Source: an uncultured virus (IMG/VR IMGVR_UViG_2049941000_000254)
Taxonomy: Duplodnaviria > Heunggongvirae > Uroviricota > Caudoviricetes
Virus record (IMG/VR): IMGVR_UViG_2049941000_000254
Strand: one strand, 5' to 3'
Length of the DNA: 51,212 nt
Shown: positions 3,273-50,975 of the stretch, piece by piece
Position numbering within the stretch: the first letter of the stretch is position 1
Layout: every line of letters starts with the position of its first letter
The notes under the pieces: model-generated
Database searches by the model: none
The model's input: only the letters and a program-made list of their open reading frames with translations
Told to the model about the DNA's origin: nothing
Made by a program: the position numbers and the translations under genes

Positions 3273-3352
3273 CCGCCAGTATTTAGTCATTCCTGACGTG
3301 ACATTTGGCTCAGGAGCACCGGGAATGACCCGTACTCACATGCATGCAATAG

Positions 3353-3711
3353 TGGAGGTGAGGGGAGTCGAACCCCTGTCCTAAACGTCATTCCAGTTCA
3401 ACCGTATCACAATCCATCGTTTTGGGCCCTGTCCTGTTGCCCTGGGAGATGTATCCTTGAGGGGTCCTGATCCAGTATAAGATAGCCGATCTACGACCAG
3501 TAACTCACGGCTAAATTTGAGAGATATGCACTTGGTCCCCGGCTTTATTCCTCTCGCTTGGCCGGGGCAACGGCGTGCTACCGGTTAAGCAGCAGCGCTG
3601 TAGGCGAATGCATTGTCAGCATTTATTGTTTTAGTCCGTTTTTACGAAGCCACAGACCAACTTCGTGTGAGGTCTCCACGGTCTGATGCCCAGTCGAAAC
3701 CAAGCACCCCC
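3353..3711 (-). ncRNA. ssrA: tmRNA; tag ORF 3620-3585 encodes (A)ADNAFAYSAAA*
   Basis: 5' GGGGGUG pairs with 3' CACCUCC including the G3.U Ala determinant; GGUUUCGAC after the acceptor strand; T-arm AGGGGUUCGACUCCCCU; resume context AAUAAAU-GCU; tag ends in AAA; 359 nt. Confidence 0.95.
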
Positions 3712-3916: not shown

Positions 3917-3990
3917 TCGGAGTGACTGGATTTAAACCAGCGACCTCCGGATCCCAAATCCGGCGCTCTATCAGCCTGAGCTACACTCCG
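3917..3990 (-). tRNA. tRNA-Pro (UGG)
   Basis: Full cloverleaf: CGGAGUG/CACUCCG acceptor, GCUC/GAGC D stem, CCGGA-UUUGGGA-UCCGG anticodon arm, GCUGG-UUUAAAU-CCAGU T arm; CCA not encoded. Confidence 0.93.
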
Positions 3991-7514: not shown

Positions 7515-7652
7515 CTAGTAGAACACCTGGGTCAACTGGTCGGCCAGACGGTACAGGTTGTTCAGTTCCTGTTCCGTCATGGCGCCGAGTTCGCCCTCGG
7601 TAAAGATTTGCTGCAAGCAGAAGAACGGATCGTACCACGATTCGCTACATCC
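7515..7652 (-). pseudogene. 3' half of a small gene interrupted by IS607 element 1 (GCSESWYDPFF...QVFY*)
   Basis: Joins in frame to the 5' half at 10924-10839 (MAESEHF...GRNSM) when the element is removed at the GG core. Confidence 0.75.
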
Positions 7653-8419: not shown

Positions 8420-9323
8420 GGTTGGCGTAAACGATACCGTCGCTCGTGATTGCGAGGTCCTTGACGCCGAAATCGACACCCACGATGTCCTGTTCCTCGA
8501 ACGAGGATATGGATTCATGGACTGGAACAATGTCGGCTACATAGGCGAAGGAGACATACCACTTACCAGCAGCATCAACGGAAACCGTAGCCATAGCGAG
8601 CGGTATCTTCTCGGAGTCCTTCGGTATCTTGATGTAGTCCTTCTCACGGAGCTTGATTCTACCGAGGGTAGGTATCTGAACGAAATCACGACCGATGAAC
8701 ACACCACCGGAGCAGCGGAACGAGTTATCCTGGTTGTAGCGGTGGAAGCGTGGGTGCTTGGCTAGACCCTTGAAGAANNNNNNNNNNCACATACCACTTA
8801 CCAGCTGCATCGACAGATACTGTCGCCATAGCAAGCGGTATCTTTTCAGAATCCTTCGGTATCTTGATGTAGTCCTTCTCACGGAGCTTGATTCTACCGA
8901 GTGTAGGTATCTGGACGAAATCACGACCGATGAACACACCACCGGAGCAGCGGAACGAGTTGTCTTGGCTATACTTGTGGAAGCGGGGGTGCTTGGCTTG
9001 ACCCTTGAAGAACCGCTTCCACGCAGCACCCAAATCTATCAAGGCTTCCTGTCCACAGAACTTGCTGACTTCGGTCATCCATCTGTTACGGGGTTCCTTC
9101 TTGAACCTGCACCAATCCCTGTGCCAATCAATCGGAGTGCCGAACTTGCACTTTACCTTCTCGTCTTCGGGCGTATTGGCTTTTGCTAATTCGTAAGCCT
9201 TGTTCTGTTCTGCGAGTTTCCAATTATAAGCACGGCGGGAAACGGCACACATGCGGTACATCGTCCGTACCTGTGCCTTGCTCGGCTTTAAGCATATCTT
9301 CCTTCCGCACTGCTGGTCCATAC
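8420..9323 (-). CDS. tnpB: Fragments of additional TnpB alleles (N-terminal HTH/wedge and RuvC-I)
   Basis: MDQQCGRKICLKPSKAQ... and VGVDFGVKDLA; overlapping near-duplicates separated by gaps. Confidence 0.8.
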
Positions 9324-9437
9324 NNNNNNNNNNAGCCTCGTTGCAGTTAATTGCCTTCTTTACGGGATCGTCCGGAAGCCACGTGGAGCATGGGTTCTTC
9401 CACACCGTCTGCTCCGGCTTCGGCGGNNNNNNNNNNA

Positions 9438-10602
9438 ACGCACTGGGCGTTGCCGTGGGGGCAAGCATTCGCAACGGAATTGTCGCTTACGGTGTATCTC
9501 ACCGCATTGGTTTCAGTCGGGACTACTAGGTTTAGTAGCCACAGGCCATAGAACTGCAAGTTCCTGGCTGCATTGTAATCTCTGTCGTGGTGATGCCCGC
9601 ATACGGGGCATACCCATTCCCTATCATCCAGGGTCAAATCCTTGTTGTAGTATTGCCCACAGTGCGAGCAGTAACGGCTAGAAGCGTAGAACTGCGGGGC
9701 GAAGAATAGCAGTATGCCTAGCCAAGCACACTTATACTCCAGGAACTGTCGCATCCTTCCGAAGTTGGCATCGAGGATAGCGGAAGCCAGCTTGTGGTTC
9801 TTATACATGTTTTTCGGCTTCAAGTCCTCAATAACGATAGCCTTCGGCTTCGTATGCTTCGTAATGTCAGCAGTGAACTGGTGAGCCGCATTGACTCGGA
9901 TGTTGGTTATCCTTCTGTGGATTCTACCAAGTATCCTCTTGCACCGCTCCCTGTTCTTGGAGTGTTTTTTCTTGCGGGATAAAGCTCTCTGGAATCTGCG
10001 TAGCCTAGCCTTGGCATGCTGGTAGGCTTTCGGGTTGGCGTAAACGATACCGTCGCTCGTGATTGCAAGGTCCTTGACTCCAAAATCGACACCCACTATG
10101 TCCTGTTCCTCGAACGAGGATATGGATTCGTGGACTGGAACGATGTCGGCTACATAGGCGAAGGAAACATACCACTTGCCAACAGCATCGACCGATACGG
10201 TCGCCATTGCAAGCGGTATCTTCTCGGAATCCTTCGGTATCTTGATGTAGTCCTTCTCTCGGAGCTTGATTCTACCAAGCGTANNNNNNNNNNACGCTTC
10301 CATGCGGAACCGAGGTCGATTAGGGCTTCTTGACCGCAGAACTTGGAGACTTCCGTCATCCACTTGTTATCGGACAGTTTCTTGAAGATGCACCATTCCT
10401 TGTGCCAATCTCTCGGTGTACCGAGGGTGCATTTGACCTTCTCGCCTTCCGGTGTGTTGGCCTTGGCTTCCTCGTAAGCCTTGTTCTGCTCGGCTAGTTT
10501 CCAGTTGTAGGCACGGCGGGAAACGGCACACATACGGTACATCGTCCGCACCTGTGCCTTGCTCGGCTTCAAGCATATCTTCCTTCCGCACTGCTGTTCC
10601 AT
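9438..10602 (-). CDS. tnpB: TnpB RNA-guided nuclease (spans gap 10284-10293; C-terminal tail continues at ~7665-7758)
   Basis: RuvC D (GVDFG), E (VIEDL) and D (DRDYNAA) intact; Zn finger CSHC...CPVC. Confidence 0.9.
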
Positions 10603-10615
10603 AGTCTATATAGCA

Positions 10616-10710
10616 AATGCCCGATGAACACTTATTGTGGAAGTTAGCGTCCATCGGGCATTCAAAAGTCCGTTATAATGTCTTATGCAAGAACTTCCAC
10701 CTACTTGCAT
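10616..10710 (-). promoter_or_regulatory. Kissing-loop 5' leader RNA of tnpB (element 1)
   Basis: 7-bp hairpin with loop UAGGUGGAAGUU; 17-bp hairpin with loop AACUUCCACAAUA; 9-nt loop complementarity. Confidence 0.7.
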
Positions 10711-10719
10711 CTATCATTA

Positions 10720-10727
10720 AGTTTATA
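10720..10727 (-). promoter_or_regulatory. Late-type promoter motif TATAAACT
   Basis: Same 8-mer at 14534(+), 19472(-), 20310(-) and 50301(-), each just upstream of a gene or leader. Confidence 0.55.
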
Positions 10728-10838
10728 ACAATCTACAATTATTTTCATTAAAAATCAAGGTATTATTGCAAGAAAATGTATATAGAAACTGGTTAAAGTT
10801 GGTAATTGTTGGTAGAAATGATGCTATCTGTTGTCATC

Positions 10839-10924
10839 CCCATGCTGTTGCGTCCCGGAATGGGCTTCGCGTTCTTGCACTGTTCAAGGAGCTGTTCCTT
10901 GGTGAAATGTTCACTTTCTGCCAT
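10839..10924 (-). pseudogene. 5' half of the gene interrupted by IS607 element 1
   Basis: MAESEHFTKEQLLEQCKNAKPIPGRNSM ends at the CATGGG target. Confidence 0.7.
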
Positions 10925-10926
10925 GA

Positions 10927-11949
10927 TTACCAACCTGTTATATGTTTAGCGAGGCTATGTTCAAATGCCATTAGTGCCAGACTGTCGGCGATTACGCCAT
11001 CGCACAATAATTTTCCGCCATGCGCATCCTTATCGGAGAATACTACCTTGTAATTCCCGTCATCGTGCTTTTCGAAATAGATGGTGTATTCTACATCGCC
11101 CTTCTTGAAACGCAGGTAGAGGATATTTTCGTCGCCCTGCCGTTCAAACTTGACACCAAAGTTTTCCAGGACCTTTTCAATCTTATCCATCGGGCGCTTC
11201 CACAAGGGATAGCCATCGGGGTCAAGTTGCGTCGTTTCGCGCTTCGGTTCTTCCACTTTCTCCTCGGGCTCAGCTTTCGGCCGTTCAATAGGAAATTCGA
11301 GTTTCTTGGCAACCCTCTTCTGCTGTTCGCGGATCTTTTCGATAACGGGAATATCGAATTTCTTGACAACCCTCTTCTGCTGTTCATGATTCTGTTCGAT
11401 ATCGGCGCACGAGCGAGGGCACTCCTCATTGGAGTCGCAGACCCGGCATTGTTCCGGGGTAGCCTTTATGCAGGCTTCAATCGTTTCGGGCACGGCGGAA
11501 TCATCCTTACTCGGTTCCTCGGGTTCACTTTCAGTGGTATGTTCCTCGGCAAACTTCTTGGCCTCGTCCGGACTCATATCAAGCGGGACTGTCGCAAGAA
11601 AATTCTTGACATCCTCGCGCAGTTTTTCGGTTTCCTTCTTACCCGGCGCCTTCTGCACCGCGGTAATTACAGGAAGGCCATTCTTCATGCACATTTCCAT
11701 GACGGAATGGGTATCTTCCTCGTAACCGCTGTCAAGACGGGCACCCTCGATGAGATTGGCGAACTCGTCGTCGATACGGCTAATGAGGAGACGGTAGAAT
11801 GCCGCACCTTCCTGGAAACCTTCATAGAAGGCGCGTCTGGCCTCCTTGTCGCCTTCATGTTCCCCCATTGGCTGGAACATCTTGGCCATGCGGGAACCCG
11901 CTGCGCGGATTGCGGCATTTTCAACCTTGATTAAGTCTTTCTTTTCCAT
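10927..11949 (-). CDS. Hypothetical protein with acidic linker and internal duplication (EQQKRVVKKFDIP/EQQKRVAKKLEFP)
   Basis: Start at MEKKDL with AAGGA SD. Confidence 0.75.
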   Translation of the reverse strand: MEKKDLIKVENAAIRAAGSRMAKMFQPMGEHEGDKEARRAFYEGFQEGAAFYRLLISRIDDEFANLIEGARLDSGYEEDTHSVMEMCMKNGLPVITAVQKAPGKKETEKLREDVKNFLATVPLDMSPDEAKKFAEEHTTESEPEEPSKDDSAVPETIEACIKATPEQCRVCDSNEECPRSCADIEQNHEQQKRVVKKFDIPVIEKIREQQKRVAKKLEFPIERPKAEPEEKVEEPKRETTQLDPDGYPLWKRPMDKIEKVLENFGVKFERQGDENILYLRFKKGDVEYTIYFEKHDDGNYKVVFSDKDAHGGKLLCDGVIADSLALMAFEHSLAKHITGW

Positions 11950-16880: not shown

Positions 16881-17082
16881 NNNNNNNNNNNNNNNNNNNN
16901 NNNNNNNNNNNNNNNNNNNNNNNNNNNNNNNNNNNNNNNNNNNNNNNNNNNNNNNNNNNNNNNNNNNNNNNNNNNNNNNNNNNNNNNNNNNNNNNNNNNN
17001 NNNNNNNNNNNNNNNNNNNNNNNNNNNNNNNNNNNNNNNNNNNNNNNNNNNNNNNNNNNNNNNNNNNNNNNNNNNNNNNNAG

Positions 17083-17300
17083 GCAGATACCCTTCTTCTT
17101 GTCCGATAACTCATTTCTATGAATTTCTATGAATGATAGCAAAAGTTGCATATTATGTCAAGGAGTTCATAGAGCTGAGTTCTTGCTTCATAGCCCGGCA
17201 CGATTCATCCGCTAGGAAGAATTGCAACCTCCGGTCTCTGGGGCTGACAAAAGTCACGCCTTCCTTCTGATATACAGAAGGGCAAGCATCGGCGGAACAA
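17083..17300 (-). ncRNA. TnpB omegaRNA/reRNA overlapping the tnpB 3' end; predicted guide ACAAGAAGAAGGGUAUCUGC (17102-17083); 5' boundary approximate
   Basis: GAGGTTGCA.TTCTT...GTGC.....ATGAAGCAAGAA conserved with 7700-7758; known TnpB guide geometry. Confidence 0.65.
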
Positions 17301-18517
17301 CCGCCTACGGCTAATCGCGCCGCAACATTTTCGTCGGTCTGGACGAGTCCAGCCAACCACTGTCCGTAGAATTTGAGGTTGACCGCCGCATTAGCGTCAC
17401 GGTCATGGTGACAGCCACATACCGGGCATGTCCATTCACGGTCAGCGAGAGTTAAATTGTCATTATGATAGCATCCGCAGTGCGAGCAGTAACGACTACT
17501 TGCATAGAACTGAGGAGCAAATATGAGCTTGATGCCAAGCCATTGACACTTGTATTTAAGAAATTCCTTGATTCTGCCGAAATTGGCATCTAGGATACTG
17601 GATGCAAGATTGTGATTCTTCGCCATATTACCGGGTCGAAGAGTCTCCATCACAATCATCTTTGGCTTCAACTTGTAGGTCAGGTCGGAAGTCATCTGGT
17701 GAGCATGGTTCACTCGGATACAGGTGACCTTGTGCCAAGCCTTTGCCAACCGCTTCCTAGCCTTCTTGCGGTTCTTTGACTTCTTGTGTTTCCTAGATAC
17801 CGCCTTCTGCAATCGATTGATGCGAGTTATATAGCGTCGGTATGCTTTCGGATTGGAATAGACAATGCCGCTAGAAGTGATTCCAGAATCCTTCACGCCG
17901 AGGTCGATACCCTCGATGTCATCGGAAGCAATTTCGGTATCTGGCGAATAAAGTGGTTCTACATCGACATGGTAGGCGAACGACACCGACCAGTGACCCG
18001 TAGGGTCTACCGATACGGTAGCCATCGCAATAGGCGTCTTCTCCACGCCGTCCGGTATCTTTATGTAATCCTTCTCGGCTAGACGGACACGACCGAGCGT
18101 GGGGAGCTGGACGAAATCACGACCGATGAATACACCGCCCGAACACCGGAATGATTCGTCTACGCCGTACTTATGGAACCGTGGATGCTTGGCTAGACCC
18201 TTGAAGAATCGCTTCCAGGCGGAACCGAGGTCGATAAGTGCCTCCTGACCGCAGAACTTGGAAACTTCCGTCATCCATTTGTTCTCCGGTAGCTTTTTAT
18301 GGATGCACCATTCCTTATGCCAGTCGATGGGCGTACCGAGCTTGCACTTGACCTTCTCGCCTTCTGGTGTGTTCTTCTTGGCTTCCTCGTAGGCTTGATT
18401 CTGGACAGCGAGCTTCCAGTTGTATGCACGACGAGAGACAGCGCACATACGGTACATCGTCCGTATCTGAGCCTTAGTCGGCAGTAAGCCTATCTTTCGT
18501 CCGCACTGTTGTTCCAT
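17153..18517 (-). CDS. tnpB: TnpB RNA-guided nuclease, 454 aa, complete
   Basis: HTH N-terminus; GIDLGVK / VMETL / DRDANAA catalytic D-E-D; Zn finger. Confidence 0.95.
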   Translation of the reverse strand: MEQQCGRKIGLLPTKAQIRTMYRMCAVSRRAYNWKLAVQNQAYEEAKKNTPEGEKVKCKLGTPIDWHKEWCIHKKLPENKWMTEVSKFCGQEALIDLGSAWKRFFKGLAKHPRFHKYGVDESFRCSGGVFIGRDFVQLPTLGRVRLAEKDYIKIPDGVEKTPIAMATVSVDPTGHWSVSFAYHVDVEPLYSPDTEIASDDIEGIDLGVKDSGITSSGIVYSNPKAYRRYITRINRLQKAVSRKHKKSKNRKKARKRLAKAWHKVTCIRVNHAHQMTSDLTYKLKPKMIVMETLRPGNMAKNHNLASSILDANFGRIKEFLKYKCQWLGIKLIFAPQFYASSRYCSHCGCYHNDNLTLADREWTCPVCGCHHDRDANAAVNLKFYGQWLAGLVQTDENVAARLAVGGCSADACPSVYQKEGVTFVSPRDRRLQFFLADESCRAMKQELSSMNSLT

Positions 18518-18525
18518 ACAAAAAG

Positions 18526-18620
18526 AGACGCCTCGCAAGGAACTAAATCGCCATTCATTTCCTCACAAGGCATCTAAAGGTTTCTTTCGGTTCTACCGGA
18601 GAATGGCGATAATCCGGTAG
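18526..18620 (-). promoter_or_regulatory. Kissing-loop 5' leader RNA of tnpB (element 2)
   Basis: 8-bp hairpin with loop UUAUCGCCAUUC; 17-bp hairpin (4 G.U) with loop containing GAAUGGCGAU; 10-nt complementarity; own promoter TTGCAA-N17-TATATT at 18661-18633. Confidence 0.75.
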
Positions 18621-18661
18621 TTCTTTATGTCAAATATAGTAAACAGTAAACAAGATTGCAA

Positions 18662-19441
18662 CTAATCATCTGACCATCTGGATAATCCGACTGCATCACC
18701 AAGTCTAGTATTTTTCTTAGGCAAAATCTTATTCCATTCTTCGTTGGTATGTTGTTCTTCTGGCATGTTTTTATGCAGCCAGGTTGTTGCTCGCTGAGAT
18801 GGGTGACTAGAAGACACCCTATTACGATTCATACTTATATTACCACCAGACCAGTTTTCAGTCCAATCGTTAATAATATCATCTAAGGTACGCCGCCATG
18901 AGCCACTCCAGCTCACTAATTTTTTTAAAGAATTCAAATAATGCTTAACTCTAGCATCATTTTTCATAATAAGTCCGCTAAATAAACCAATCAGCATTGC
19001 GGGTACCGTTCGTATCGCATCAAATGCCCTATTTTGATATACACGAACGAATTTGGCGTTGGGATTATCTTGGTCATACCCAGTGCCTTCATAATGCTTA
19101 AATTGATTCAATAAATAATAATTAGAACCGGGTTCCACTGGTTGTGCATCCGGTTTCAATTNNNNNNNNNNGCCAAATAGGATATTCCCTAATGATTGGA
19201 TAACGCTTTTATACAATTTGTATGTTACATATACTGAAACCGGTGCCGCTAAAAAAGTCGAAATGTCACCATCAAATAACGACGCTTCTGTTAAACAAGA
19301 TGCTGTTTGATGTGCAACATCATGTTGTGCTTCAATCAGTGCTTTATACCCCTTGACCAGCGGTTCTGCTGCATCCGGCACATTATACATCTTACAGACG
19401 CTTTCAATGAAATTGGCGTAAGTCATTTCCAACTGGTTCAT
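18662..19441 (-). CDS. Cargo protein of unknown function inside IS607 element 2 (spans gap 19162-19171)
   Basis: AT-rich ORF between tnpA and tnpB; TATAAACT at 19479-19472; N-terminal FIES-x16-GYKALIEA motif. Confidence 0.7.
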   Translation of the reverse strand: MNQLEMTYANFIESVCKMYNVPDAAEPLVKGYKALIEAQHDVAHQTASCLTEASLFDGDISTFLAAPVSVYVTYKLYKSVIQSLGNILFGXXXXLKPDAQPVEPGSNYYLLNQFKHYEGTGYDQDNPNAKFVRVYQNRAFDAIRTVPAMLIGLFSGLIMKNDARVKHYLNSLKKLVSWSGSWRRTLDDIINDWTENWSGGNISMNRNRVSSSHPSQRATTWLHKNMPEEQHTNEEWNKILPKKNTRLGDAVGLSRWSDD

Positions 19442-19474
19442 GGTATATTCTCTCAACTAATGTATATCCATAGT

Positions 19475-20131
19475 TTATACTTTTGCCCCAGCATCGGCTG
19501 ACTTCTTTTCGGCTCGTTTCTTCCTGTTCTCCTTACCTCGTTTGCTGTACAGCTTGGCAGAGAATACAGCAATCAGTGATAGCATATCCTTTACCAAGTC
19601 AGCCTCGAACGACTCACTCAGCACGGATTCGACATACTCCACCTCGACGCCATGTGACCGGAAGTATTCCACAACCAGCTTGAAGTTGAACCTCGTAAGG
19701 CGGTCGTAATGCTCGATGACAACCTTATCGAACTTGTGTTCGCAAGCCAGTCGCATCATCTGCAACAGCTTCTTTCGGTTGTCATTCAAGCCGCTACCGA
19801 CCTCCTCGAATACATACTCAACTGCGTACTTCTTCTCAGCACAGTATTCTAGCAACCGGAGCTTCTGTCGGTCTAGGTCGCCATGCGACTTCTGGTCGGA
19901 AGTGGATACACGGCAATACACCGCTACTCGGTTGCCCTTACTGGCTGTGTTGGTCTGGTCTGGTTTGATTTCTCCGAGGTAAGCTCTGAGTTCGTCCTCG
20001 TCCCAGCGTCGGTTTCCCTTTTCGCTGGCACGGTAGGCGGTCAGTTTGCCTTCCTCCGTCCATCTGCGTAGCGTGTCTGGGCAACAGCCCAGAATCTCAC
20101 ACGCCTTCTTCGTTCTTACTTTCTTGCCCAT
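19475..20131 (-). CDS. tnpA: IS607 TnpA serine recombinase (MerR-like HTH plus resolvase domain)
   Basis: ACEILGCCPDTLRRW..EGKL; VYCRVSTSDQ; EEVGSGLN; HYDRLTRF; DMLSLIAVFSAKLY. Confidence 0.95.
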   Translation of the reverse strand: MGKKVRTKKACEILGCCPDTLRRWTEEGKLTAYRASEKGNRRWDEDELRAYLGEIKPDQTNTASKGNRVAVYCRVSTSDQKSHGDLDRQKLRLLEYCAEKKYAVEYVFEEVGSGLNDNRKKLLQMMRLACEHKFDKVVIEHYDRLTRFNFKLVVEYFRSHGVEVEYVESVLSESFEADLVKDMLSLIAVFSAKLYSKRGKENRKKRAEKKSADAGAKV

Positions 20132-20291
20132 TCTCAACCTCTATTCCGAGCATATCGGCACTGCGGTCGAGCATCGTCTGGAACTCTTCCAGGGTAGGCA
20201 AGGGGTCGATGTCGAACATCATGGGCTGGATAGTTCCGTCCTCAAGTTCGAACTCTTCCTTGGTGATGCGTACTACTTTCATGCGTTTCAT
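20097..20291 (-). CDS. Small acidic ORF inside the left end of IS607 element 2
   Basis: AAGGAG SD and TATAAACT upstream; overlaps the tnpA start. Confidence 0.6.
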   Translation of the reverse strand: MKRMKVVRITKEEFELEDGTIQPMMFDIDPLPTLEEFQTMLDRSADMLGIEVENGQESKNEEGV

Positions 20292-20395
20292 CTCGTTATA
20301 TCTCCTTTAAGTTTATAACGCAGCGCATAAAATATACATAATAATTCATAGAAACTCGTAGAAATTCATAGAAATCTAGTTGTCAGTTACTGTCC

Positions 20396-47665: not shown

Positions 47666-47720
47666 AAATGTATGCAGTGCGGAAACTCACCCATCTTTAG
47701 TGGGTATGAGGAGCGCTGCT
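47666..47720 (-). mobile_element. 3' end of the IscB IS200/605 element, followed by ATGAAA (candidate TAM)
   Basis: Hairpin CTCATACCCACTAAAGATGGGTGAG then TTTCCGC..., typical of IscB ends. Confidence 0.55.
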
Positions 47721-48834
47721 TCCTCCATAATGTAGGTGTTGTTGTGATGTTTTAGGGTCAGCTTCTTGTAACTGACCGAATCTGCTAGAACTTTTCCGGT
47801 GATATCAGCAACCGAAAACGATCCCGACATCCTACGTCCGCTCAGAAAGCACTCCCTGTATGCATACCTGACGGAATCCATCAGCCGGAATCCCCTTACT
47901 TCACGTGGTGCCTGGTTGTTTCTACGCTTGCCGCCCCGAAGAATGGTTGCATGGTGCAGTTGCCTGTTGTTCACATGCAACTTGCGGATAATCCAGTACT
48001 TGCCATCTGAACATGCACACGGATTGCCGCTGATGCAGCGGGCATCTATCACATGTTCCTTCGGAAGTCCATGGCTAGTGCGGGTATGTTTGGTGATGTA
48101 ACCATATGTATCGTAACAAGGAATTACCTCACCGATTTCCTCCTTCAGCCTGTTGAATAGCGCTTTCCGCATGATACCCATCTGTGCCGCGTCACGCAGC
48201 GATGTACCACGTCTTGCAGTCTTCGACAGATCGATTTCTCCACGGTGGTACTTAGCATGGCATTCCGAGCACAACGTGATAATGTTGTTAGGTGCATCAC
48301 CGCCTGTCTTCCGACTCTCGATGTGGTGGACATGCAGCTTCTTGTCCTTGGACTTTCCCTTGCAGCACTGGCATTTGTGCCCGTCTCGACACAGCACGTA
48401 TTCCCGCACATTAGAGAATCCGAGCTGTTCGCCCTTCTGGTAGTCGGTACCCTGAGGCAACGGAAGCCCCTGTGTCTGGGCCTTCAACAGCTGGGTATCG
48501 AACTGCGCAGTTTCCACCGTTATCTTCTTGATAGGCAAGAACTTGCAGATTCTCGAAATCCAGTGGATATGACAATCCACCTTCTGTCTTACGGAAGGTG
48601 CAATCCATCCCGGCTTCTTGGACCCAGTCCTGTTCAGGAACCGAGGCTTGCGGTAGCGAGTTTTCCTGTTCCTTCTGGTCCGACGGAACTCCCTTCGTGC
48701 AGCCAGCTTGGCTACGATATCCGACCTCAGCAATAATTCTGCTTCGAAAAGTACCTTCTTCTTGGTAGTCGCGGAAAAGCCTACATGCTTCGTACCCGCG
48801 TCTACGCCTAGACTGACCCCCTGGACGCCGTTTG
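47687..48834 (-). CDS. iscB: IscB RNA-guided nuclease (N-terminus in gap)
   Basis: RuvC-I GVDAGTK, Arg-rich bridge RREFRRTRRNRKTRYRKPRF, RuvC-II VETAQFD, HNH HVHHIESR...NIITLCSECH, RuvC-III HVIDA. Confidence 0.95.
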
Positions 48835-50709: not shown

Positions 50710-50975
50710 ATCAACTACCCACGGGCTAAAGACCCGTGAGTTTGGGGTAACCCGGACTCATAGTTGATTAGACTCAGTGAAGCATAGCAATATGCTGAAC
50801 TACGTTAGGAAGGCCATAACACCTACGGATGTACGGTCAAGTCTGTAGCTCTGTTGAATGTCATTAAACAGTCCTGATGGGTAGGGACAGTGTGGCGTTC
50901 ACGACAAGCCTCCCTAACATTGTCGATGACCACCCACAGGGAGCAATCCCTGCATTACCTATTAAGTTAGGTTCA
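50710..50975 (+). ncRNA. IscB omegaRNA (HEARO-like); guide is the flank ~50692-50709
   Basis: ATCAACTACCC...GTTGATTAGACTCAG...CTACGTT...CACCTACGGATG...AGTCTGTAGCTCTG...AACATTGTCGATG, directly upstream of the iscB ATG. Confidence 0.9.

What the first reader, a model, noticed from the sequence alone, without database searches (positions are those of the whole stretch)
10603..10727. Kissing-loop leader in front of SD-less tnpB (copy 1)
Seen: TATAAACT, then a 7-bp hairpin with 12-nt loop UAGGUGGAAGUU, a 22-nt spacer, a 17-bp hairpin whose loop begins AACUUCCAC, and 13 nt to the AUG. There is no SD. The loops pair over 9 bp. The sequence is unrelated to copy 2 while the architecture matches, which amounts to whole-structure covariation.
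Basis: seen in the sequence. Interest (0 to 1): 0.7.

Follow-up and report, generated by a model that had tools for sequence, protein, structure and literature searches.

The report
Kissing-loop RNA leader before phage nuclease genes
A roughly 115-base stretch in front of a phage-borne tnpB nuclease gene folds into two hairpins whose loops pair with each other, and this design recurs with many different but always matching loop sequences in front of selfish nuclease genes in related phages, so it is most likely an undescribed RNA control element.

Summary
On the minus strand, 10727-10603 holds TATAAACT, a 7-bp hairpin (H1) with a 12-nt loop, a 17-bp hairpin (H2) with a 13-nt loop, 9 perfectly complementary loop bases, and no Shine-Dalgarno before the ATG at 10602.

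It is not chance:
- 38 of 67 upstream regions of related tnpB genes carry the same design.
- In 32 distinct leaders aligned by a model that does not contain the loop-loop helix, all 9 loop-loop pairs covary. 288 of 288 cells are Watson-Crick, with 11 loop variants.
- Three further types were read directly. One lower-scoring copy has a shorter 7-bp loop match.

New points:
- TATAAACT is a promoter-like box of this phage group.
- The leader is not specific to one tnpB family. It also precedes three other TnpB families and a PD-(D/E)XK homing-endonuclease-like gene.
- No Rfam family matches it, and four literature searches found no description.

Best reading: a portable, cis-acting 5' leader RNA, pseudoknotted by kissing loops. 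Its long hairpin and U-rich tail abut an SD-less start codon and throttle nuclease expression. The structure is well supported. The mechanism is inferred.

The parts
10720..10727 (-). TATAAACT promoter-like box (-10 type) at the head of leader copy 1
   Evidence: Found 5 times in the window against 0.85 expected; 0 of 100 shuffles reach 5. The other 4 sit 6-32 nt upstream of ORF starts, one of them the amidase/endolysin gene. It is the most conserved block of the leader, diversity 0.034.
10685..10710 (-). Hairpin H1: 7-bp stem ATGCAAG/CTTGCAT with 12-nt loop TAGGTGGAAGTT
   Evidence: All 7 stem pairs show double-sided changes across 32 leaders.
10692..10700 (-). Loop-1 strand of the kissing helix (GTGGAAGTT)
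   Evidence: I6. 9 of 9 pairs covary and 288 of 288 cells are Watson-Crick.
10663..10684 (-). 22-nt spacer between the hairpins, ending in a U-rich run
   Evidence: Its diversity (0.37) is higher than that of the stems.
10616..10662 (-). Hairpin H2: 17-bp stem with G-U pairs and 13-nt loop AACTTCCACAATA
   Evidence: (I1). All 16 modelled pairs show double-sided changes. The G-U pairs hold only on the tnpB sense strand.
10637..10645 (-). Loop-2 strand of the kissing helix (AACTTCCAC)
   Evidence: (I6).
10603..10615 (-). U-rich, SD-less linker between H2 and the tnpB start codon
   Evidence: Across 32 leaders a mean of 5.25 of the first 8 nt after H2 are T, against a T frequency of 0.32.
9437..10602 (-). 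tnpB copy 1, ATG at 10602, interrupted by the N gap at 10284-10293
   Evidence: It is a homologue of copy 2, which carries HTH_OrfB_IS605, OrfB_IS605 and Cas12f1-like_TNB.
18518..18638 (-). Leader copy 2: -10-like TATATT (18638-18633); H1 18620-18593 with loop TTATCGCCATTC; H2 18574-18527 with loop ATGAATGGCGATTTAG; kissing strands 18610-18601 and 18556-18547; linker TCTTTTTGT
   Evidence: (I3).
17156..18517 (-). tnpB copy 2, intact, 454 aa
17103..17300 (-). 3' end of tnpB copy 2 with the omega-RNA region and the right end of the element (...TTATCGGA)
   Evidence: Contigs from RNA libraries cover only 17102-17488 and diverge at 17102/17103. This region is not part of the leader; it marks the element's end.

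Best explanation
The stretch is the transcribed 5' leader of a nuclease gene cassette. It belongs to an RNA motif that no Rfam family matched and that my four literature searches did not find.

Inferred course of events:
- Transcription starts a few bases after the phage-type promoter box TATAAACT.
- The RNA folds into a short hairpin H1 and a long hairpin H2.
- Nine to ten loop bases of H1 pair with the loop of H2 (a kissing or pseudoknot helix K), which locks the leader into one compact fold.
- H2 ends 5-14 nt before the start codon. It is followed only by a U-rich tract and no Shine-Dalgarno.
- The fold therefore throttles expression of the nuclease. It occupies the ribosome landing zone and probably also acts as a partial intrinsic terminator.
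- It also makes expression independent of whatever lies upstream of the inserted cassette.

Shown: the three helices, their covariation, the sense-strand polarity, the promoter-like box, the lack of an SD, the U-rich tail, and the association with selfish nuclease genes.

Inferred: that the leader is transcribed from TATAAACT, that it represses rather than activates, and the level at which it acts.
For: Structure:
- H1 and H2 are predicted in both window copies and independently by RNAalifold on 22 leaders.
- On 22 leaders, 97.9% of cells pair, against 34-43% when the partners are slid. K is 100% paired and 5 of its 9 pairs show double changes.
- On 32 distinct leaders aligned by a covariance model that does not contain K, 98.1% of cells pair and all 32 pairs show double-sided changes. 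K is 288 of 288 Watson-Crick, 0 of 500 shuffles reach the observed values, and slid controls give 35-41%.
- That alignment holds 11 K variants. Three more perfect types were read: a 7-nt type and two 9-nt types. A fourth, from a lower-scoring copy, has a 7-bp match.
- The geometry is constant. There are 2-3 unpaired nt 5' of K in loop 1 and about 4 unpaired nt 3' of K in loop 2, as expected for linkers that cross the grooves of a pseudoknot helix (inference).
- Strand: the many G-U pairs in H1 and H2 hold only on the gene's sense strand.

Promoter:
- TATAAACT is enriched in the window, 5 against 0.85 expected.
- In a 99%-complete 253-kb relative there are 26 copies against 9 for the control pattern.
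- It lies just upstream of other ORFs, including an amidase/endolysin gene.

Repressor-like anatomy:
- In 38 of 67 tnpB upstreams the script's H2 (which counts up to 19 pairs) ends 7-13 nt before the ATG.
- After H2, 4-7 of the next 8 nt are T.
- There is no SD, while other genes in the window have AAGGAG or GGAGG.
- tnpB copies that directly follow another ORF have no leader, and several of them have an AAGGA or GAAGG run instead.

Association:
- A whole-record search of 10 viral records (1.376 Mb) gave 15 hits, 13 of them directly upstream of nuclease genes: 8 tnpB of this family, 4 other TnpB-like genes and 1 DUF7487/PD-(D/E)XK gene.

Precedent:
- T-even phage homing-endonuclease genes are controlled by late promoters combined with stable RNA hairpins at the start of the gene (PMC2988022, passages read).
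Against: - There is no expression evidence for the leader. RNA-library contigs covered only the 3' end of tnpB, and contigs cannot show RNA ends.
- The simple terminator scan did not call H2, because its loop exceeds the scan's 8-nt limit. The sigma-70 scan did not call TATAAACT.
- The promoter lies upstream of both hairpins, so the T4 logic, in which late transcripts escape the hairpin, does not apply. How the nuclease is ever translated is unexplained.
- Three leaders precede ORFs that do have an SD 22-37 nt after H2: orf132 in L009/L010, orf285 in L091 and an nrdG-like gene in L098. Occlusion of the start site therefore cannot be the only role.
- A purely cis-acting fold does not obviously explain why K varies so much and never shows G-U.
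Confidence: 0.5

Rival explanations
1. The module is a small RNA gene in its own right. The TATAAACT promoter, H1 and H2 with its U-tract as terminator would give an RNA of about 100 nt with a function of its own. The nuclease genes would merely sit behind its terminator and be expressed by read-through, or would use the site as a landing pad.
For: - H2 followed by a U-rich tail resembles an intrinsic terminator in every type.
- The module also occurs in front of unrelated ORFs that have their own SD, and once alone between nrdD and an nrdG-like gene.
- The same leader type is combined with tnpB genes of three different clades, at 95%, 68% and 59% identity to copy 2. This shows modular exchange.
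Against: - 13 of 15 hits in whole records abut a nuclease start codon at a narrow distance with no SD. That argues for coupling to the downstream gene.
- The two copies not followed by a nuclease gene score lowest and have an imperfect loop match of 7 bp, as expected for decaying remnants.
- If the loops pair with each other, they are not free to find targets.
- No RNA contig covered the leader. This is weak, because a 100-nt RNA may not assemble.
Confidence: 0.2
2. The kissing loops act between molecules, not within one. This would give copy-specific or multicopy control, with loop diversification keeping co-resident cassettes orthogonal.
For: - K is strictly Watson-Crick (288 of 288 cells), while H1 and H2 tolerate G-U.
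- K evolves faster than the stems: diversity 0.28 against 0.19-0.21.
- In all 7 records or windows with two or more leaders, the K sequences differ. These are the window, G001, G002, G003, G006, G009 and G010.
Against: - The constant short linkers fit an intramolecular pseudoknot.
- With about 15 types in circulation, distinct loops within a genome are expected by chance. My rough estimate puts that probability at about 0.3, so the result is not significant.
- There is no evidence for dimers.
Confidence: 0.12
3. The helices create a processing or stability signal. Coaxial stacking of K on H2 would give a quasi-continuous helix of about 25-27 bp, which could be an RNase III site, or a 5' structure that protects the mRNA. 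Cleavage or protection, rather than occlusion, would set the nuclease level.
For: - H2 (16-19 bp) plus K (9-10 bp) share one continuous strand, because the paired part of loop 2 directly abuts the 5' arm of H2.
- H1 lies within a few nt of the expected transcript start (inference from the position of TATAAACT).
Against: This is purely structural reasoning. No cleavage data exist. No conserved internal loops of the kind seen in known RNase III sites were looked for.
Confidence: 0.1
4. The hairpins are single-stranded DNA signals of the transposon's left end, as in IS200/IS605 elements, and are not an RNA.
For: The leader lies inside the repeat-bounded element, and IS200/IS605 ends carry subterminal hairpins (recalled knowledge).
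Against: - The associated transposase is a serine recombinase of the IS607 type, which acts on double-stranded DNA (established knowledge).
- The element's real end repeats (TTTCTAYG) lie elsewhere.
- No similar hairpin is seen at the right end.
- The same leader precedes a homing-endonuclease-like gene that is not a transposon.
- It always has the orientation and position of a 5' UTR behind a promoter-like box.
Confidence: 0.04

Closest known systems
Regulatory hairpins with late promoters in front of T-even phage homing-endonuclease genes (I-TevI/II/III, segB, Aeh1 mobE, seg43 of phage 25); PMC2988022, passages read
   Same: - A phage setting and a selfish DNA-nuclease gene.
- A phage promoter box directly upstream.
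- A very stable RNA hairpin at the start of the gene that limits translation.
- In seg43(25) the hairpin sits just upstream of the ribosome site without covering it.
   Different: - Here there are two hairpins joined by a covarying loop-loop helix.
- There is no SD to sequester.
- The promoter lies upstream of the whole structure, so its transcripts cannot escape the fold.
- The genes are mostly TnpB.
IS200 tnpA 5' region: a terminator hairpin plus a ribosome-site-sequestering hairpin, whose 5' UTR also yields a small RNA
   Same: Two hairpins at the left end of a TnpB-related transposon family keep the element's own gene quiet and insulate it from outside transcription.
   Different: - The gene is different (tnpA), as is the family.
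- The loops are not complementary.
- There is no sequence or model match; Rfam gave nothing.
   Same: Two hairpins whose loops pair. In pRNA the loop pair covaries between related phages while the sequence changes.
   Different: - No closing P1 helix is supported.
- There is no conserved ligand-binding core.
- K is 9-10 bp, far longer than in those RNAs.
- The genomic role is different.
TnpB omega-RNA (right-end RNA) and the IscB omega-RNA HEARO
   Same: Structured non-coding RNA linked to the same nuclease family. A HEARO copy lies in this window at 50710-50937.
   Different: - The omega-RNA of these tnpB genes is at the 3' end (RNA contigs cover 17102-17488).
- The leader has no flank-derived guide.
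- It also occurs with a nuclease that uses no guide RNA.

Membership tests
Any Rfam 15 family | Match to a curated covariance model | tested here: not met
   The gathering-threshold scan of the whole window found only HEARO, tmRNA and tRNA. Permissive scans of 10560-10960 and 17081-18760 gave only chance-level hits with E above 3.
T4-type homing-endonuclease translational hairpin | Phage promoter box immediately upstream of the nuclease gene | tested here: met
   TATAAACT is enriched and lies upstream of other ORFs, including the endolysin gene. Whether it is a late promoter was not tested.
T4-type homing-endonuclease translational hairpin | Hairpin sequesters a Shine-Dalgarno sequence | tested here: not met
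   No SD is present. H2 ends 5-14 nt upstream of the ATG and is followed by a U-rich linker.
T4-type homing-endonuclease translational hairpin | Promoter placed so that its own transcripts lack the 5' arm of the hairpin | tested here: not met
   TATAAACT lies 9-13 nt upstream of H1, so both hairpins are downstream of it.
Intrinsic terminator / attenuator | G+C-rich stem directly followed by a U-tract | tested here: inconclusive
   The stem is 16-19 bp and 4-7 of the next 8 nt are T in 32 of 32 leaders. The loop is 13-16 nt, however, and the consensus scan called nothing. No termination assay was possible.
Purine-riboswitch-like tuning fork | P1 helix closing a three-way junction, plus a conserved junction core | tested here: not met
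   RNAalifold predicts no enclosing helix. The flanks and spacer are the least conserved parts, with diversity 0.36-0.54.
IS607-family element (setting of the leader) | Serine-recombinase TnpA (MerR-type HTH plus Resolvase domain) upstream of tnpB, with subterminal repeats at both ends | tested here: met
   - Copy 2: the ORF 20137-19478 has HTH_17/MerR plus Resolvase.
- Left-end repeats ATTTCTATGA/ATTTCTACGA/GTTTCTATGA are inverted relative to the right-end repeats CATAGAAAT.
- Relatives L057 and L030 have the same tnpA.
- Copy 1 has the repeat words (CATTTCTACC, AGTTTCTATA) but no tnpA.
TnpB omega-RNA | Scaffold at the 3' end of tnpB, running into a flank-derived guide | tested here: not met
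   The leader is at the 5' end. The expressed 3' RNA maps to 17102-17488. The leader also precedes a non-TnpB nuclease gene.

The most novel reading that the evidence does not exclude
The leader may be a portable, self-contained 'governor' RNA for selfish nuclease genes, with the kissing helix serving as a programmable address. Under this reading, strict Watson-Crick pairing and rapid turnover of the loop pair reflect selection for orthogonality between cassettes in one genome. Leaders would then sense each other in trans, for instance to shut off the nuclease when an identical cassette is already present. This would be an RNA-based self-recognition system for homing elements, shared by TnpB and protein-only homing endonucleases.
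Probability: 0.1. Interest if true: 0.9.

Novelty: new variant of a known kind. Interest (0 to 1): 0.68.

Why it matters
- How tnpB expression is controlled is little explored to my knowledge. Work I know of concentrates on the 3' omega-RNA, and four full-text searches found no description of a structured 5' leader.
- A conserved leader would show that these nucleases are under tight, portable post-transcriptional control. It is supported by covariation as clean as this (288 of 288 loop-loop cells paired across 11 variants) and is shared between several TnpB families and a classical homing-endonuclease-like gene.
- It would link TnpB elements in large phages to the regulatory logic known for T4 homing endonucleases.
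- The motif is a ready candidate for a new RNA family.
- It is a compact natural example of a long intramolecular kissing helix.
- It could serve as a tunable insulator for expressing TnpB-type editors.

Tried and rejected
- Whole-genome search of the window's own genome: no genome is held.
- RNA evidence: one run search and one lay of contigs from 4 RNA-labelled runs (X1, X5, X9, X10). They covered only 17102-17488 and nothing on the leader. Contigs cannot show ends, so this says nothing for or against transcription of the leader.
- Rfam at gathering and at permissive thresholds: nothing relevant.
- Consensus promoter and terminator scans: they called neither TATAAACT nor H2. For copy 2 they called TTGCAA-17-TATATT.
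- Group I intron (IStron) idea: no Intron_gpI hit even at E up to 10, and the leader is only about 115 nt.
- Omega-RNA or guide-related role of the loops: rejected, because the same design precedes a nuclease that uses no guide RNA.
- Conserved leader peptide: ORFs starting in H1 or H2 of copy 1 are not kept in relatives; indels in the spacer shift the frame (read).
- Enclosing P1 helix: seen in single-sequence folds but not in the alignment fold.
- Alternative nested folds that use K as a long-range helix appear in the single-sequence folds of L048, L087 and L089. They are not shared between types.
- Loop similarity to the tnpB start region: no consistent relation.
- Leader upstream of tnpA in complete IS607-like copies (L042, L057, L079): no hit at E up to 1.
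- Earlier findings of this scan: none on record.
- Literature: 'TnpB' with 'kissing' gave 4 irrelevant papers. 'TATAAACT' with promoter and phage gave 1 irrelevant paper. Kissing loop with homing endonuclease gave nothing pertinent in the 10 papers listed. The TnpB/IS607/UTR/stem-loop/left-end search was read as a listing only.

Full report
**1. What is in the window**

The window is a phage-like scaffold with 50 runs of N. It encodes a RecT-like protein, an endolysin/amidase, HNH proteins, a tmRNA and a HEARO RNA. No whole genome is held for it.

The gene of interest lies on the minus strand. Its ATG is at 10602 and the product begins MEQQCGRK. The ORF is cut by N gaps, and the stretch 9321-8421 holds redundant tnpB pieces that look like assembly variants.

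A second, intact copy of 454 aa runs 18517-17156. It carries HTH_OrfB_IS605, OrfB_IS605 and Cas12f1-like_TNB domains.

**2.

Reading 10727 to 10603 on the minus strand:

| Feature | Sequence | Coordinates |
|---|---|---|
| Box | TATAAACT | 10727-10720 |
| H1 5' arm | ATGCAAG | 10710-10704 |
| Loop 1 | TAGGTGGAAGTT | 10703-10692 |
| H1 3' arm | CTTGCAT | 10691-10685 |
| Spacer | 22 nt | 10684-10663 |
| H2 arms | 17 nt each | 10662-10646 and 10632-10616 |
| Loop 2 | AACTTCCACAATA | 10645-10633 |
| Linker to ATG | 13 nt, no SD-like run | 10615-10603 |

- GTGGAAGTT in loop 1 is the exact complement of AACTTCCAC in loop 2 (I6).
- Copy 2 has the same layout with other letters. Loop 1 is TTATCGCCATTC, loop 2 is ATGAATGGCGATTTAG, and the match is 10 nt (I3).
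- Both regions fold far better than shuffles, with z of -3.9 and -5.7.
- Shuffling the loops alone reproduces the match in 223 and in 7 of 200,000 trials.

**3. Relatives**

TnpB-based scans gave 6 and then 12 viral loci and 65 metagenome loci.

- I extracted 170 nt upstream of every tnpB whose match began at residue 1, plus the two window copies. That gave 67 regions, 58 of them distinct.
- A script searching for two successive hairpins with complementary loops flagged 44 of the 67.
- In 38 of these, H2 ends 7-13 nt before the ATG and the loops match over 7-10 nt.
- The other 6 lie in coding DNA 24-90 nt from the ATG, and I count them as spurious.
- 23 regions had nothing. One of them, L026, is truncated.
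- After removing identical sequences, 31 leaders remain.

**4. Covariation**

On 22 copy-1-like leaders (alignment A3):
- 97.9% of cells pair, against 34-43% with slid partners.
- The loop-loop helix K is 100% paired, and 5 of its 9 pairs change on both sides.
- RNAalifold independently recovers H1 and H2.

A covariance model of H1 and H2 only (R1) was used to align 32 distinct leaders, including copy-2 types and three new loci (A4). K is not part of that model, so its columns give an independent test:
- All 9 K pairs covary.
- 288 of 288 cells are Watson-Crick, with no G-U and no mismatch.
- All 7 H1 pairs and all 16 H2 pairs also show double-sided changes.
- 0 of 500 shuffles reach the observed values.

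Further points:
- A4 holds 11 K variants, with duplex energies of -11.5 to -15.5 kcal/mol.
- Three more perfect types were read directly. L048 has 7-nt loops CTGGTCC/GGACCAG that are complementary throughout. L096 has GTGGTATTC/GAATACCAC. L097 has GTGGATTTC/GAAATCCAC. The low-scoring copy L091 has a fourth type with a 7-bp match.
- G-U pairs are frequent in H1 and H2 and hold only on the sense strand. The structure therefore belongs to the RNA, or at least to that single strand.
- Loop 1 always has 2-3 free bases 5' of K, and loop 2 has about 4 free bases 3' of K. This fits an intramolecular pseudoknot (inference).

**5. What TATAAACT is**

- The box is the most conserved part of the leader, with diversity 0.034.
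- It occurs 5 times in the window against 0.85 expected.
- The other four copies lie 6-32 nt upstream of ORF starts. One of these is the amidase/endolysin gene, and two have clear SDs.
- A 99%-complete 253-kb relative has 26 copies, against 9 of a control pattern.
- In copy 2 the aligned position reads TATATT, behind a TTGCAA -35-like hexamer.

I read the box as a promoter of these phages. It resembles the T4 late box as I recall it. The transcription start itself is not shown.

**6. Setting**

Copy 2 lies inside a complete IS607-like element. In order, the element holds:
- left-end repeats near 20381-20350;
- TATAAACT, an SD and a small ORF;
- a MerR-HTH/Resolvase tnpA at 20137-19478;
- a second TATAAACT and a passenger ORF;
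- the leader, then tnpB;
- the right end at 17103, where contigs from RNA libraries diverge.

Copy 1 keeps the end-repeat words (CATTTCTACC, AGTTTCTATA) but has no tnpA.

Where tnpB directly follows tnpA (L042, L057, L079) or a NUMOD1 ORF (L030 and others), the leader is absent, and an AAGGA or GAAGG run precedes the ATG. L020 and L043/L044 share copy 1's upstream context but run straight into the ATG. The leader is therefore a module that is present or absent, and it is exchanged. The same loop type is found with tnpB genes at 95%, 68% and 59% identity to copy 2 (L002, L075, L051).

**7. Not only this tnpB**

Models R1 and R2 were searched over 10 whole viral records, 1.376 Mb in total. They gave 15 hits at E up to 0.1.

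| Downstream gene | Hits | Loci |
|---|---|---|
| tnpB of this family | 8 | already known loci |
| 501+ aa TnpB-like ORF (Cas12f1-like_TNB just under cutoff; PHROG transposase) | 2 | L087, L097 |
| 404-aa TnpB | 1 | L089 |
| 376-aa TnpB | 1 | L096 |
| 363-aa DUF7487 plus weak PD-(D/E)XK protein, between NrdD and an NrdG-like gene (a classic homing-endonuclease position) | 1 | L090 |
| Non-nuclease ORFs | 2 | L091, L098 |

- The two lowest-scoring hits are the exceptions. L091 precedes an SD-bearing 285-aa ORF, and L098 lies alone between nrdD and the nrdG-like gene.
- Both have only a 7-bp loop match and a degenerate box, as expected of remnants.
- In L009/L010 a 132-aa ORF with its own SD sits between the leader and tnpB.

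**8. Mechanism**

The facts point to a transcribed 5' leader. Its compact three-helix fold sits against an SD-less start codon and ends in a U-rich tail; 4-7 of the first 8 nt after H2 are T in all 32 aligned leaders.

The closest precedent is the control of T-even homing-endonuclease genes by late promoters combined with very stable hairpins (PMC2988022, passages read). Two defining features of that scheme are not met here. There is no SD to sequester, and the promoter lies upstream of the whole structure.

I therefore propose a constitutive throttle and insulator: occlusion of the ribosome landing zone, probably with partial termination at H2. K would pre-organise or lock the fold.

Rival readings are a separate small RNA gene, trans-acting kissing between copies, an RNase III or stability element, and a DNA-level signal. 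The DNA-level reading is disfavoured by the serine recombinase, by the sense-strand G-U pairs and by the non-transposon case. No expression data for the leader could be obtained.

**9. Novelty**

No Rfam family matches. Four full-text searches found no description. Earlier notes of this scan hold nothing for this place.

The kind of element, a regulatory RNA structure in front of a phage nuclease gene, is known. This architecture, its covarying kissing helix and its link to TnpB did not turn up in the libraries searched.

Noticed in passing
window 17103-20381 (minus strand): A complete IS607-like element. It has left-end repeats ATTTCTATGA/ATTTCTACGA/GTTTCTATGA, a TATAAACT box with an SD and a small ORF (MKRMKVV...), a MerR-HTH/Resolvase tnpA at 20137-19478, a second TATAAACT at 19479-19472, a passenger ORF, leader copy 2, tnpB, and right-end repeats CATAGAAAT x2 ending ...TTATCGGA at 17103.
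   Followed up: partly
window 17102-17488: Contigs from four RNA-labelled runs cover only the 3' end of tnpB copy 2. Three of them break off into unrelated sequence at 17102/17103. This is as expected for an omega-RNA with different guides in different copies, and it fixes the right-end boundary.
   Followed up: partly
window 8421-9321 and N runs throughout: The scaffold has 50 N runs. It also carries redundant, slightly different pieces of tnpB, including a second start at 9321. These look like collapsed strain variants placed in series, so 'copies' in this stretch should not be counted as genomic copies.
   Followed up: partly
window 50710-50937 (+) and 47690-48733 (-): A full-length HEARO (IscB omega-RNA) match at 131.5 bits lies near the window end. 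A separate 348-aa RRXRR plus HNH ORF lies on the other strand. A TATAAACT box at 50308-50301 precedes the ORF 50294-49236.
   Followed up: no
window 3350-3711 (-) and 3917-3990 (-): A tmRNA (99 bits, full model) and a tRNA are encoded in what otherwise looks like phage DNA.
   Followed up: no
L090 and L098: The same intergenic site between nrdD and an nrdG-like gene holds leader plus a homing-endonuclease-like gene in one phage (L090). In another (L098) it holds only a degenerate leader. This looks like a cassette gain or loss that left the leader behind.
   Followed up: partly
L020, L043, L044 (upstream of tnpB): These loci share copy 1's upstream context (AAATAAATGTAGATTGT) but go straight to the ATG within 4-6 nt. 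They have neither TATAAACT nor the leader, a clean presence/absence polymorphism of about 115 nt.
   Followed up: partly
L030 162-1487: A 442-aa NUMOD1/I-HmuI-NUMOD-like ORF sits between a serine-recombinase tnpA and tnpB. The motif ...KWAYADAA* followed by CATAAGGACTAGGCTATG recurs in about a dozen loci. This is a three-gene IS607-like arrangement.
   Followed up: partly
window 10796-10924 (-) and about 7515-7640 (-): A 43-aa ORF ends just upstream of copy 1's left end, and its C-terminus is conserved at the protein level in L003 and L004. An ORF tail (...WYDPFFCLQQIFTEGELGAMTEQELNNLYRLADQLTQVFY*) follows a right end at about 7660. The element may split a small phage gene.
   Followed up: no
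L048 1385-1503: In this leader type both loops are 7 nt and complementary throughout. H1 is also nearly the full antisense of the top of H2, so the two hairpins could merge into one long duplex (seen in the minimum-energy fold).
   Followed up: partly
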